In this document: positions 36,001 to 39,000 of the stretch, piece after piece
How positions within the stretch are numbered: the first letter of the stretch is position 1
Layout of the letters: each line of letters opens with the position of its first letter
DNA from: a virus
Lineage: Duplodnaviria > Heunggongvirae > Uroviricota > Caudoviricetes
Virus record (IMG/VR): IMGVR_UViG_641736224_000031
DNA length: 42,289 nucleotides
Reading direction: 5' to 3' (one strand)
Program-made: the position numbers

Positions 36001-39000
36001 TTATCCAGCCAACGGAAAATTTTCTGGGTATTACGAGCCAGGGCTTCCGGATGGCTGTCGTCGTACAGTTCCGGGAACGTCATCCCCAGCTCGAAATAAG
36101 TCCGGGCTATTTCAGCTGCAGGAACTTTCTCACCGTCCGGATAGGCCCAGGCATTGATCGCCATGCGGATGTGCTCATGTTTGATTTTCATGAATCCCCC
36201 TTTCCTTCGCCCTGAGTGGTATCCTTCTTTTTGTAAAGTTCTGGGTTCAAAGATAATTTCCCCTTGGAGTATGCAGCAGCTTCCGCAGCCCTCCCCTTCG
36301 GAACTATTTCACCAGGACGCTTACGCCACATGTAAATAGCTTCGCGGGTTATCCCATAAAAATCGGCAACCCTCTGAACAGAACCAAAAAACTGGACAAG
36401 TTCATCAACTCGCATTTTACCTCCTAAATCTAAGCATTTTTAGATTACAAGATAATTTTTTTTAGGTCAATGCAATCTAAAATAATTTATATTCAATTTG
36501 CAGGAGAAAATGATGGAAAGCCTTGGCTTCAGGCTTAAGAGACTTAGAAAAGATAAGGGGCTGACCCAAGTAGAACTGGGTAAGCTTTCAGGCGTGACTG
36601 GGGTTACTATAGGGTACTGGGAGAAAGATCTAAACGAACCAGGTAGCAAAGCTCTAAGTAAGTTAGCCCAGGCATTAGGAACTACTGAGTCCTATCTCCT
36701 ATATGGAGTATCGTCTCCTGAATTATCTTTTGTACAAAGTACCTCAGGCACCAAGATCCCCTACCTTTCGTGGGGTGAGGCGATTTCTTTCCTAATCTTA
36801 AAAGGAGAGAAAACAATGGGAAATGTCGATAGAATCACCACATTCTTTGATGTCGAGGAAGGTGATTTTGCCGTTTCAATGCCTGATGACACAATGCATA
36901 ACCCATCAGGATCACCGAGTATCCCAGTTGGTGCTACTGTGATCCTAAGGCCAGGAGAAAGTTATAAAAATGGCAGCATCGTCGCTGTAATAGTTCCGGA
37001 TCCGCTTAAAAATGAACCATCTATGACTATAAAGAAATTAGTTATTGATGGGAAGCTTGTGTATTTAAGCCCTCTCAATCCACGCTATCAGTCATCCTTA
37101 CTTACACCAGAGTGTAAAATTGTTGCCGTAGCAAAAGGTGTACAGTTCAACTTATAACCCGCCACGTCCTTTACTTGAGGTCGGCAATGCCGACCTTTTT
37201 TTTAAATTAATCTAGATTTACCTTGACTGAAAAACTAAATACTTTTAGATTTATTACATACCACCCTACCTCGCCCCACAGAACGTCGGGCAATACCTCG
37301 AGTTACCCGGCAGTGGTCAGGGGTTAAGTAGCCAGCCCGAGGCGTATGAACATGACGGCGGGAACACTTTGTATAACAGCGCAGCAGGTTTTTAGTTCCG
37401 CGACCCGGCGTTAAGGGTAAATGAGGTCAACATGGATATGCTCAATCTTGGCAACAATGAATCTCTGGTGTGCGGAGTATTCCCCAACCACGACGGCACG
37501 TTTACCGCGATGACGTATACCAGAAGTAAAACGTTTAAAACCGAAGCTGGCGCGCATCGCTGGTTAGCAAGAAACGCTAACTGATTAGCGCCAGTAAAAA
37601 CAGGTTTCCACAGGTTAATTTACCCTGAAAAGTCAGGGCATAACACGAAAGCGCACGGCGAAGTTAGTCTCTCTGTATAGGTCGTCGTTAAATTTAATTC
37701 GACCGTGCGCTTCTGGTTGTGGCAATCCGCGAAATGGCGCGGCGGTAAGTATGGCGGGGTTATTCCTTCCCCCGTTGAGGACACCGGGTTGTCAGGTTGA
37801 CCATACGCTTAAGTGACACCCCAGCCACAACAACCTCTGTTATCACTTTTCTGGTGATTCGGCGGAAATGGATATCCGCCCTTTTTAAAGTGAATTTTGT
37901 GATGCGGTGAATGCGGCTATGCGCACGCGGAACAGTTAAAGCAGTAAGGCGGTCTTTTACTGGCGTAACGAGCATCAACTAACCCGACGTTAATTGTTAA
38001 CTGGTTAACGTCACCTGGAGGCACCAGGCACTGCATCACAAAATTCATTGTTGAGGACGCGATAATGGAAACGTTATTACCAAACGTTAATACGTCTGAA
38101 GGTTGTTTTGATATTGGTGTTCTGCTCAGTAATAAAGCGTTTACTGAGGATGCCATTAATATGCGGAAATATGAGCCTTATCTGCTCAATGATAATTCCA
38201 TTCTTTCCCGAATTGCCCTTATTAAACTTGGTATTTTCGGAGAACGTCAATGACTTCAGCATTTGCACTGGTGATGACGGTTTTTCTTATAACGGGTGAA
38301 TCACAGAATGTTATTACCGGAATTTATGCCAGTAAAGAATCCTGCCTCCAGGCAAGAGACGAGCAAAAAATTTCTGGTGAATGCCTACCGGTAAAAAAAG
38401 TATCGCTGTACCTGAATAACGAAACACCGGCTGGATAACCCGCCAGCCATATTAACGCCATACCAACGGATTAAAAATGCCAGCAATGGCAGGGATTCGT
38501 TCACCCTGAAATCTGTAATGAGGTTAAAACACAATGAGTAAAATCTTTATTTGCGCTGCTATTCCTGACGAACAGGCCATAAAAGAAGATAGCGCTGTTG
38601 CGGTGGCCACTGCCATTGAAGCCGGTGATGAGCGTCGCGCACGCGCAAAATTTCACTGGCAATTTCTGGAGCAATTCCCGGCAGCTCAGGACTGCGCTTA
38701 TAAATTTATTGTCTGCGAGGATAAACCCGGCATACCCCGCCCTGCCCTCGATTCCTGGGATACCGAATATATGCAGGAAAACCGCTGGGATGAGGAGTCA
38801 GCTTCCTTTGTACCGGTCGAACCAGAATCCGATCCGATGAACGTCAATTTTGACAAGCTGTCCCCTGAAGTACAGAACGCAGTCCTGGTTAAATTCGACA
38901 CATGCGAAAACATCACCGTTGATATGGTGATTAGCGCACAGGAATTACTACAGGAAGACATGGCAACATTCGGCGGACATATCGTTGAAGCGTTGATGAA

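What the first reader, a model, noticed from the sequence alone, without database searches (positions are those of the whole stretch)
37432..38438. DicF-like sRNA and dicB-like division inhibitor operon (ydfA-like, DicF, dicB-like, ydfD-like) downstream of a cI-type repressor
A Qin-type division-inhibition operon is present, but driven from a lambda-type cI/operator/pL arrangement rather than a DicA-type repressor. The sRNA candidate (37848..37887) keeps the DicF 5' UUUCUGGUGA and the GCCGCCCUUUUU terminator but is about 15 nt shorter than my memory of K-12 DicF. Between the ydfA-like gene and DicF there are about 260 nt with no plausible ORF (no ydfB/ydfC equivalents) but several hairpins, possibly the processing substrate. 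EHEC DicF copies have been reported to influence virulence regulation, so sRNA plus effector plus PerC-type regulator on one prophage is noteworthy.
Basis: partly seen in the sequence, partly recalled or inferred. Interest (0 to 1): 0.5.

Follow-up and report, generated by a model that had tools for sequence, protein, structure and literature searches.

The report
Short DicF-like RNA beside dicB
This is the already annotated early-left operon of E. coli O157:H7 prophage Sp14 (ydfA-like, dicB, ydfD-like genes), but where DicF should sit it carries a shortened, unannotated small-RNA variant that keeps DicF's first ten bases and terminator and lacks the part that silences the cell-division gene ftsZ.

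Summary
The window is prophage Sp14 of E. coli O157:H7 Sakai. The three proteins are confirmed: YdfA-like (DUF1391), DicB (Pfam E=1e-35) and YdfD-like (DUF1482). They lie downstream of a cI-type repressor, its terminator and an operator-overlapped promoter. ydfB and ydfC are absent.

About 210 nt of the 263-nt "ORF-free" stretch is the conserved pre-DicF precursor, 87% identical to K-12.

The "DicF" is only partly DicF. It sits in the homologous slot and keeps nt 1-10 and the CCGCCC-U5 terminator end. Its inner hairpin, the ftsZ/pykA-pairing module, is replaced by a 6-bp hairpin, making it 19 nt shorter.

It gets no Rfam DicF hit at E<=10, whereas K-12 scores 76.7 bits. Predicted pairing with ftsZ, pykA and manX falls to background.

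It is not one of the four published EHEC dicF copies and is unannotated. It occurs in 470 of 5,426 complete E. coli genomes and in E. albertii.

The slot is a modular cassette. Rac's KilS sRNA occupies the same position, and recombinant alleles exist.

Most likely this is a processed, terminator-ended RNA of about 39 nt that does not repress ftsZ. Whether it acts in trans, or is only a leaky terminator before dicB, is untested.

The parts
36188..36415 (-). Cro-like regulator, divergent from the repressor
   Evidence: Pfam P22_Cro 1.2e-9. Annotated Cro in Sakai as ECs_2765.
36425..36495 (.). OR-like operator cluster between cro and cI
   Evidence: Exact CTAA-N6-TTAG at 36430-36443, with one-mismatch copies at 36452 and 36477. 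A 21-nt repeat is shared with the pL region.
36513..37157 (+). cI-type repressor (P22 C2-like HTH plus lambda cI-like S24 C-terminal domain)
   Evidence: Pfam HTH_3 1.9e-12 and Peptidase_S24 5.2e-11. PDB matches to P22 C2 and to the lambda cI C-terminal domain. Thr aligns with the lambda Ser149 nucleophile.
37177..37205 (+). Intrinsic terminator after the repressor gene
   Evidence: 9-bp stem followed by T8.
37203..37253 (+). pL-like promoter (TTGACT 37223-37228, TAGATT 37246-37251) with overlapping operator palindrome at 37235-37248
   Evidence: Promoter scan. Exact palindrome. Repeats shared with the OR region. Function is inferred.
37258..37431 (+). Untranslated leader of the operon
   Evidence: Nearly identical behind three different repressor types. 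86-88% identical in free phages. Not unusually structured, z=+0.55.
37432..37584 (+). ydfA-like gene (DUF1391, 50 aa)
   Evidence: Pfam 1.3e-28. 80% identical to K-12 YdfA.
37646..37715 (+). Long hairpin of the precursor, the likely RNase III substrate
   Evidence: MFE fold. The stem is conserved in 80 sequences while the loop varies. The K-12 190-nt species starts about 137 nt upstream of DicF (PMC10448788). The mapping to this hairpin is inferred.
37716..37831 (+). Multi-stem domain of the precursor, closed by GGUUGUGG/CCACAACA
   Evidence: MFE fold, z=-1.9 for 37641-37890. Consensus fold of 80 sequences with no compensatory changes. The block also occurs in phages without DicF.
37842..37858 (+). 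Small hairpin presenting the inferred RNase E site (cut between 37847 and 37848) and masking the GGUGAU seed in the precursor
   Evidence: MFE folds of the window and of K-12 show the same hairpin. The cleavage position is taken from the annotated K-12 DicF 5' end.
37848..37886 (+). Short DicF-slot sRNA candidate: 13-nt single-stranded 5' end, 6-bp hairpin (37861-37866 / 37875-37880), then C and U5
   Evidence: Alignment to K-12. Fold -10.7 kcal/mol. Terminator scan. No Rfam hit. Allele catalogue.
37887..38064 (+). dicF-dicB spacer: conserved block A (37887-37940), variable block (37941-37985), conserved block C with the dicB ribosome site (37986-38064)
   Evidence: 94%, 29% and 99% identical to K-12. 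The same blocks lie upstream of kilR in Rac. Weak STnc100 match, 29.5 bits against a gathering score of 47.
38065..38253 (+). dicB (62 aa), a subtype with a diverged C-terminal half
   Evidence: Pfam DicB 1.3e-35. 65% identical to K-12 DicB. The subtype is linked to the short allele in 38 of 40 loci.
38250..38438 (+). ydfD-like gene (DUF1482, 62 aa), overlapping dicB by 4 nt
   Evidence: Pfam 2.6e-16. 47% identical to K-12 YdfD.
38534..41005 (+). Exonuclease gene (823 aa) continuing the operon towards xis/int
   Evidence: Pfam Rv2179c-like 3'-5' exoribonuclease domain, 3.6e-62. Sakai ECs_2770. It occupies the position of the K-12 ydfE pseudogene.

Best explanation
This is the early-left (pL-type) operon of the lambda-like O157:H7 prophage Sp14. 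While the cI-type repressor occupies the operator that overlaps the promoter, the operon is off. When repression is lifted, one transcript runs through a 174-nt leader, the ydfA-like gene and a structured non-coding precursor of about 210 nt.

By homology with K-12, RNase III cuts the long hairpin of the precursor. RNase E then cuts in the loop of a small hairpin just before UUUCUGG. The 6-bp GC hairpin plus U5 terminates part of the transcripts. This would release an RNA of about 39 nt, plus a precursor of about 170 nt. Read-through transcripts would express dicB (a MinC-dependent division inhibitor), the ydfD-like lysis-type protein, the exonuclease and, further on, int.

The small RNA is an allele of the same variable cassette that holds DicF in Qin and KilS in Rac. 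It keeps DicF nt 1-10 and the terminator end. It has lost the inner hairpin that pairs with ftsZ and pykA. So it most likely does not repress ftsZ, and division inhibition from this prophage rests on DicB.

Shown: homology, gene content, predicted structure, model failure, and loss of predicted pairing. Inferred: promoter and operator function, processing sites, existence of the small RNA, and any trans activity through its 10-13-nt 5' seed.
For: Identity and genes:
- The locus matches Sakai Sp14.
- Protein families are confirmed.
- Promoter, operator and terminator layout.

Block-wise homology to K-12:
- Precursor 87% identical.
- DicF nt 1-10: 10/10.
- Inner body 35% identical, with 17 gap columns.
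- Terminator end 9/9.
- Spacer blocks 94% and 99%.

Processing and structure:
- The same precursor hairpins are predicted in both loci.

Not canonical DicF:
- Rfam DicF gives no hit here, against 76.7 bits for K-12.
- In K-12 the DicF 3' region acts on ftsZ and the 5' end on xylR (PMC5069750).
- Cofold binding energies (K-12 allele vs this allele): ftsZ -16.1 vs -6.5, pykA -10.7 vs -5.3, manX -13.9 vs -4.6, xylR -14.8 vs -8.3. The background for the short allele is -5.5 +/- 1.8.

Precedent and spread:
- KilS, in the same slot of Rac, is an Hfq-associated RNA verified by northern blot.
- The allele is widespread and stable: 470 of 5,426 genomes, 47 flank-anchored viral contigs with the 27 nt CCTCTGTTATCACTTTTCTGGTGATTC invariant, and E. 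albertii.
Against: - There is no expression evidence. The held supplements of the Sakai Hfq-CRAC and RNase E-CLASH studies contain no entry at these coordinates and no hybrid with this sequence, although canonical DicF hybrids are present.
- The hairpin is weaker than K-12's (-10.7 vs -15.9 kcal/mol) and no better than shuffles (z=-1.2).
- Polymorphism in the RNA is not significantly lower than in the adjacent leader: 6/39 vs 8/30 positions, Fisher p=0.37.
- The A-to-C change two bases before the inferred RNase E site removes the purine seen in K-12.
- Deletion-decayed alleles of the slot exist (62-nt form), so this one could also be a remnant.
- The repressor has Thr where lambda cI has its catalytic Ser, so SOS induction of the operon is not assured.
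Confidence: 0.6

Rival explanations
1. It is a decayed DicF remnant. The hairpin now serves only as a leaky intrinsic terminator (a tL-type attenuator) that limits expression of toxic dicB. Any short RNA released has no trans-acting role.
For: - Only 10 nt of the DicF seed remain.
- There is no Rfam hit.
- No predicted target stands out above background, including pch.
- Constraint on the RNA is not distinguishable from its flanks.
- Other deletion-type alleles exist, such as the 62-nt slot that lacks the 5' arm.
- No CLASH or CRAC record was found.
Against: - The hairpin is intact in 44 of 47 flank-anchored copies. Two of the three stem variants keep a wobble pair.
- The 13-nt 5' end never varies.
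- The allele has spread behind at least four repressor types and into E. albertii.
- KilS shows that non-DicF alleles of this slot can be Hfq-bound sRNAs.
- A 7-10-nt seed is enough for many Hfq sRNAs (general knowledge).
Confidence: 0.3
2. It is a functional DicF in the usual sense. On this reading it represses ftsZ and activates pch translation, adding a fifth dose to the EHEC DicF pool.
For: - Same slot, same first 10 nt and same terminator end.
- DicF is reported to pair at the anti-SD in the pchA coding region (PMC7769764).
- GGUGAU of this allele can pair with AUCACC at +11..+16 of pchC.
Against: - The ftsZ/pykA-pairing loop ACUCCGUGA is absent. Predicted ftsZ binding is at background.
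- The family model fails outright.
- The pch prediction changes with the target window. At seed level it is -9.9 kcal/mol against a random -7.1 +/- 2.2.
- The four published EHEC copies map elsewhere: 1.26, 1.88, 2.16 and 2.33 Mb in EDL933, whereas this prophage lies at about 2.78 Mb.
Confidence: 0.1

Closest known systems
DicF sRNA (Rfam RF00039) of the Qin prophage, and the four canonical EHEC copies
   Same: - Homologous position between the ydfA-side precursor and dicB.
- Identical nt 1-10.
- Identical CCGCCC-U5 end.
- Conserved precursor with the same predicted hairpins and RNase E-site context.
   Different: - 19 nt shorter.
- The seed diverges after nt 10.
- The inner hairpin that pairs with ftsZ and pykA is replaced by a 6-bp stem with an 8-nt loop.
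- No hit to the family model.
- Predicted ftsZ, pykA and manX pairing is lost.
KilS sRNA of the Rac prophage (b4833; Bar et al. 2021, PMC8175672)
   Same: - Occupies the same cassette: a DUF1391 gene upstream, a division-inhibitor gene downstream, the same terminator end and the same downstream spacer blocks.
- The 3' arm of the hairpin here (GGATATCCGCCC) is closer to the KilS/type C/type F arm (CTGATGTCCGCCC) than to K-12 DicF's.
   Different: - KilS is 98 nt with a different 5' part (UGUGUAGUC) and a long hairpin.
- It precedes kilR rather than dicB.
- It may have its own promoter.
dicBF operon of Qin (ydfABC-dicF-dicB-ydfDE under DicA)
   Same: - Gene order: ydfA, precursor, sRNA slot, dicB, ydfD, exonuclease-type gene.
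- The repressor gene lies immediately upstream on the same strand, with a divergent cro-like gene.
   Different: - No ydfB or ydfC.
- An intact 823-aa exonuclease instead of the IS2-disrupted ydfE.
- A repressor with an S24 domain instead of the HTH-only DicA.
- A different, longer leader.
Lambda immunity region (cI, OR, OL/pL)
   Same: - Divergent cro and cI genes.
- Three operator-like sites between them.
- A terminator after cI.
- A promoter overlapped by an operator, reading leftward genes towards xis/int.
   Different: - No N gene and no rexAB.
- The HTH domain is P22 C2-like.
- Thr sits at the position of the catalytic Ser, and no Ala-Gly cleavage site was recognised.

Membership tests
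DicF RNA (Rfam RF00039) | Scores at or above the family's gathering score (48 bits) with the covariance model | tested here: not met
   No hit in the whole window at gathering. No hit at E<=10 in 1.5 kb or in 81 nt. The K-12 control scores 76.7 bits. Other slot alleles score 61.1, 43.5 and 38.8 bits.
DicF RNA (Rfam RF00039) | Homologous genomic slot: downstream of the conserved precursor and upstream of dicB in a lambdoid early-left operon | tested here: met
   The flanks align to K-12 at 87% (precursor) and at 94% and 99% (spacer blocks).
DicF RNA (Rfam RF00039) | 5' single-stranded seed used on xylR (about nt 4-16, CUGGUGACGUUU) | tested here: inconclusive
   Nt 1-10 are identical and nt 11-13 differ. 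Predicted xylR binding falls from -14.8 to -8.3 kcal/mol, ranked 0.08 against background.
DicF RNA (Rfam RF00039) | 3'/loop region complementary to the ftsZ ribosome-binding site | tested here: not met
   The segment is absent. Predicted ftsZ binding is -6.5 kcal/mol (z=-0.5), against -16.1 (z=-2.9) for K-12 DicF.
DicF RNA (Rfam RF00039) | Rho-independent terminator hairpin with a U tail forming the 3' end | tested here: met
   6-bp stem (5 GC), 8-nt loop, then CTTTTT.
DicF RNA (Rfam RF00039) | [quoted passage not shown] | not testable with these tools
   Only the precursor homology and shared predicted hairpins could be shown.
DicB division inhibitor (Pfam PF05358) | Full-length match to the DicB profile above its cut-off | tested here: met
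   121.4 bits against a cut-off of 27, covering residues 1-62 of 62. 65% identical to K-12 DicB.
DicB division inhibitor (Pfam PF05358) | MinC-dependent inhibition of septation | not testable with these tools
   The C-terminal half differs from K-12 DicB. Its activity is inferred.
YdfA (DUF1391) and YdfD (DUF1482) | Profile matches above the cut-offs, in the Qin gene order | tested here: met
   98.8 and 59.7 bits. 80% and 47% identity to the K-12 proteins.
LexA/cI-type self-cleaving repressor (HTH plus Peptidase S24) | Both domains present | tested here: met
   HTH_3 47.4 bits and Peptidase_S24 42.7 bits. PDB matches to P22 C2 and the lambda cI C-terminal domain.
LexA/cI-type self-cleaving repressor (HTH plus Peptidase S24) | Ser-Lys catalytic dyad and an Ala-Gly cleavage site | tested here: inconclusive
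The hinge did not align and no Ala-Gly was seen.

The most novel reading that the evidence does not exclude
DicF and KilS are not separate sRNA families. They are alleles of one hypervariable, modular sRNA cassette that sits just upstream of the division-inhibitor gene (dicB or kilR) in lambdoid early-left operons. 5' seeds and hairpin/loop seeds recombine independently between perfectly conserved borders.

On this reading the Sp14 allele is a natural "5'-seed-only" DicF. It would be a fifth, Rfam-invisible DicF-type regulator in O157:H7 that has shed ftsZ repression while keeping a subset of 5'-seed targets.
Probability: 0.3. Interest if true: 0.55.

Novelty: new variant of a known kind. Interest (0 to 1): 0.35.

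Why it matters
EHEC work treats DicF as a four-copy gene and deletes those four copies. A fifth, divergent copy on the prophage that also carries pchC and tccP is missed by Rfam-based annotation and could confound such experiments if it is active.

More generally, the slot shows how prophages diversify a small RNA by swapping seed modules between fixed processing and terminator borders. That gives a natural series of alleles: a DicF 5' end with or without the ftsZ module, and a KilS 5' end with the DicF hairpin. These alleles could be used to separate DicF's division and metabolic functions.

If the allele is inert, the locus is simply the known Sp14 dicB operon.

Tried and rejected
- **Leader as an antiterminator RNA.** I considered a put-like, N-independent antiterminator in the 174-nt leader (37258-37431), because the operon has no N gene and must pass the DicF-slot terminator. 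The leader is conserved across immunity types and in phages. But it folds no better than shuffles (z=+0.55) and has no Rfam match. Not pursued.
- **Covariation in the precursor.** A consensus fold of 80 distinct sequences gave 40 pairs with no compensatory change. This is uninformative rather than negative.
- **Purifying selection on the short RNA.** The pattern-based sample was biased, because 25 of the 39 positions were fixed by the query. The flank-anchored sample showed no significant difference from the leader (p=0.37).
- **Pairing with the pch leader.** Results changed with the target window and were not above random.
- **Long-loop duplexfold predictions** were discarded as uninformative.
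- **Expression evidence.** Nothing was found at Sakai 2,707,4xx-2,707,8xx in the held supplements of PMC4104026 and PMC5286369, and there was no hybrid with this sequence. PMC7547250 has no held supplements.
- **Papers not held.** Melson & Kendall 2019, Murashko & Lin-Chao 2017 and Faubladier & Bouche 1994 could not be read. The exact DicF-pchA duplex, and what the 1994 paper said about dicF-like sequences near kil, could therefore not be checked.
- **Coordinate offset.** Annotation coordinates taken from strain TR01 are offset by 2-3 nt in the left part of the window. Coordinates in the finding's region were checked directly.
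Full report
**What the window is.** The 1,381 bases around the finding are 100% identical to many E. coli O157:H7 chromosomes. In strain Sakai the locus is annotated as prophage Sp14, a lambda-like phage integrated at serU next to mtfA. From position 20170 onward the window differs from Sakai at only five positions. Sakai annotates the repressor as ECs_2766 (CI) and the three operon proteins as ECs_2767 (hypothetical), ECs_2768 (DicB) and ECs_2769 (hypothetical). 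No RNA gene is annotated between ECs_2767 and ECs_2768.

**The protein-coding claims hold.**
- 37432-37584 matches Pfam DUF1391 (E=1.3e-28) and is 80% identical to K-12 YdfA.
- 38065-38253 matches DicB (E=1.3e-35, full length) and is 65% identical to K-12 DicB.
- 38250-38438 matches DUF1482 (E=2.6e-16) and is 47% identical to K-12 YdfD.

The operon continues into an 823-aa protein with a C-terminal Rv2179c-like 3'-5' exonuclease domain, and then to int.

**The regulatory layout is lambda-like.** Upstream lies a 214-aa protein with HTH_3 and Peptidase_S24 domains. Its N-terminus matches P22 C2 and its C-terminus matches the lambda cI C-terminal domain. A Cro-like gene is divergent from it. The repressor gene ends in a 9-bp hairpin plus T8. 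A TTGACT-17-TAGATT promoter-like site follows at 37223-37251.

The palindrome CTAA-N6-TTAG occurs exactly only twice in the 42 kb. One copy is in the cro/cI intergenic region (36430), where two one-mismatch copies lie next to it. The other (37235) overlaps the -10 element of that promoter. 21-nt repeats link the two regions.

The contrast with DicA is smaller than suggested, for two reasons:
- K-12 has the same topology (dicC | dicA, then ydfA...).
- The same downstream module is found behind RacR-type, DicA-like and other repressors.

One caution: in an alignment to lambda cI, Thr occupies the position of the catalytic Ser149, and no Ala-Gly site was recognised. RecA-dependent induction therefore cannot be assumed.

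**The ORF-free stretch.** Alignment with K-12 Qin shows that ydfB and ydfC (about 460 nt) are absent. From about 37641 to 37847, however, the window is 87% identical to K-12's own non-coding interval between ydfC and dicF. In K-12 that interval is the substrate from which RNase III makes a 190-nt DicF species and RNase E makes the 53-nt species (PMC10448788).

The predicted fold of the window's version contains three elements:
- a long hairpin (37646-37715);
- a multi-stem domain closed by GGUUGUGG/CCACAACA (37716-37831);
- a small hairpin in which AUCACU pairs with GGUGAU and presents UUUCU in its loop (37842-37858).

K-12 folds the same way. The whole stretch folds somewhat better than shuffles (z=-1.9). 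Eighty distinct homologues showed conserved stems but no compensatory changes, so covariation neither supports nor refutes the fold.

**The small RNA is in DicF's slot but is not DicF by the family test.** Taking the 5' end from the K-12 annotation, the candidate is 37848-37886: UUUCUGGUGAUUCGGCGGAAAUGGAUAUCCGCCCUUUUU.
- Nt 1-10 are identical to K-12 DicF, as are the last nine (CCGCCC-U5 region).
- Everything between is replaced. K-12's 37-column inner segment aligns at 35%, with 17 gap columns.
- The RNA is 19 nt shorter than K-12 DicF.
- It folds into a free 13-nt 5' end and a 6-bp hairpin (-10.7 kcal/mol, z=-1.2). K-12's fold is -15.9 kcal/mol.

Rfam's DicF model finds nothing here, at the gathering score or at E<=10, even when only 81 nt are searched. 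The same model gives 76.7 bits for K-12 DicF.

**Consequences for known targets.** In K-12 the 3' region of DicF pairs with the ftsZ ribosome-binding site and the 5' end pairs with xylR (PMC5069750). I computed ensemble binding energies from cofolding and compared them with 63 unrelated translation-initiation regions.

| Target | K-12 DicF (kcal/mol) | Short allele (kcal/mol) |
|---|---|---|
| ftsZ | -16.1 (z=-2.9) | -6.5 (z=-0.5) |
| pykA | -10.7 | -5.3 |
| manX | -13.9 | -4.6 |
| xylR | -14.8 | -8.3 |

For the pch leader of this same prophage (pchC, 20643-20957, minus strand) the prediction depends on the target window. At seed level it is -9.9 kcal/mol against -7.1 +/- 2.2 for random 35-mers. 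DicF is reported to bind the anti-SD inside the pchA coding region (PMC7769764), and GGUGAU here can pair with AUCACC at +11..+16. That remains a lead only, because the original paper was not available.

**It is a fifth locus, not one of the known four.** EDL933's four DicF genes (52-56 nt) lie at 1.255, 1.881, 2.159 and 2.326 Mb. The sok copy belonging to this prophage lies at 2.777 Mb (PMC5331693; sok at 31228-31402 in the window). The Sakai RNase E-CLASH tables list canonical dicF at 2.20 and 2.25 Mb with the K-12-type sequence. The held text contains no hybrid carrying the short sequence. I found no paper describing this variant.

**Distribution.**
- A 65-nt query centred on the allele covers at least 80% of its length in 470 of 5,426 complete E. 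coli genomes, 316 of them at 99% identity or more.
- It is in 41 IMG/VR contigs and in the E. albertii type strain.
- In a flank-anchored sample of 47 copies, which is unbiased with respect to the RNA itself, there are 11 haplotypes.
- In that sample the 27 nt CCTCTGTTATCACTTTTCTGGTGATTC never vary. Two loop positions, the base after the stem and three stem positions do vary, and two of the three stem changes keep a wobble pair.
- Polymorphism in the RNA (6/39) is not significantly below that of the 30-nt leader (8/30; p=0.37).
- In 40 of 41 loci with enough flank, dicB follows. It is usually the same DicB subtype as here. One locus has a kilR-like gene instead.

**The slot is a modular cassette shared with KilS.** Anchoring on the conserved flanks recovered several allele types from viral contigs:
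- the K-12 type, which is the majority;
- this short type;
- a type with the DicF 5' end and a different hairpin (43.5 bits);
- a type with a different 5' end and the DicF hairpin, whose stem carries a GGUGG/CCACC double change (61.1 bits);
- two further types (38.8 bits and no hit).

In K-12's Rac prophage the order is racR, ydaG, ydaF (DUF1391), KilS sRNA, kilR (FtsZ inhibitor). KilS ends in the same CCGCCCTTTTT. It is followed by the same AAAGTGAATTTTGTGATGCGGTGAATGCGGCT spacer and the same CACCTGGAGGCACCAG block before the inhibitor gene. KilS is an Hfq-associated RNA verified by northern blot (PMC8175672); that paper does not mention DicF. An alignment of seven alleles shows three things:
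- the KilS-like 5' end is combined with the DicF hairpin in one type;
- the DicF 5' end is combined with a KilS-like hairpin in another;
- the short allele's 3' arm resembles the KilS-type arm.

A 62-nt allele lacking one hairpin arm shows that decay by deletion also happens.

**Verdict.** The operon is real and already annotated. The most likely reading is a processed, terminator-ended RNA of about 39 nt from the DicF/KilS cassette that has lost ftsZ control, with DicB as this prophage's division inhibitor (confidence 0.6). The main rival is that the element is only a leaky terminator with no trans activity (0.3). Canonical DicF function is unlikely (0.1). I rate it a new variant of a known kind, of modest interest.

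Noticed in passing
window 37887-38064: The non-coding spacer between the sRNA slot and dicB has two blocks (37887-37940 and 37986-38064) that are 94% and 99% identical to K-12. That is far more conserved than dicB (65% aa) or ydfD (47% aa). The same blocks precede kilR in Rac. Block C gives a weak STnc100 (RF02076) match, 29.5 bits against a gathering score of 47, centred on CACCUGGAGGCACCAGGCAC. Function unknown.
   Followed up: partly
window 37258-37431: The 174-nt leader between the pL-like promoter and ydfA is nearly identical behind three unrelated repressor types. It is 86-88% identical in free Escherichia phages (Tritos, Evi, vB_EcoS-689R5). K-12 and DicA-like loci use a different, shorter leader. 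It is not unusually structured (z=+0.55). There is no N-like gene in the operon.
   Followed up: partly
window 36513-37157: The cI-type repressor has Thr (DDTM) where lambda cI has its catalytic Ser149 (GNSM). The Lys is kept and no Ala-Gly hinge site was recognised. It may not self-cleave on SOS induction.
   Followed up: partly
window 36425 and 36435: Two of the only five differences from Sakai Sp14 in 22 kb fall inside the operator-like repeat AAATCTAAGCATTTTTAGATT in the cro/cI intergenic region.
   Followed up: no
L133 6406-6503 (K-12 Rac, minus strand): The KilS sRNA occupies the position homologous to DicF, with the same terminator end and downstream spacer. The paper that named KilS does not mention DicF.
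   Followed up: yes
L003 4747-5234; L042 4732-5215: In some viral contigs the DicF-slot allele is followed by isrK and C4 antisense RNA (Rfam 60-78 bits) instead of dicB. The slot therefore also sits upstream of an antirepressor-type module.
   Followed up: no
L180 66-161; L182 4495-4590: A 62-nt slot allele lacks the 5' arm of the terminator hairpin (…ACCTTTTCATTGCTGGCTGATGTCCGTCCTTTTT). It is apparently a deletion-decayed copy.
   Followed up: no
phage records H127-H146: 81 deposited phage genomes now carry dicB and/or the DicF-slot region, including Tritos (annotated DicF), mEp460 and the O157 PPompW phages. A 2016 paper reported none in phage databases. Parts of the precursor (37716-37839) and of the spacer also occur alone in Stx2c phages, cdtI phage and Shigella Stx phages.
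   Followed up: partly
window 1-1014, 20643-20957, 23841-25054, 27120-27292, 28066-28312, 31081-31402: The rest of the prophage carries:
- a TccP/EspFU-type proline-rich repeat effector (337 aa);
- pchC (PerC family, 104 aa);
- an IS629/IS1203 insertion with its ALIL frameshift pseudoknot;
- an STnc100 RNA (100.8 bits);
- three tRNAs (Ile, Arg, Arg);
- a hok/sok module.
In strain TR01 the terminase large-subunit gene is annotated as frameshifted and the major capsid gene as partial.
   Followed up: no
window 38065-38253 and loci L134-L173: The short sRNA allele is linked to a DicB subtype whose C-terminal half (…RKYEPYLLNDNSILSRIAL…) differs from K-12 DicB (…RKQERELLNKICIVSMLARL…). 38 of 40 loci carry this subtype.
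   Followed up: partly
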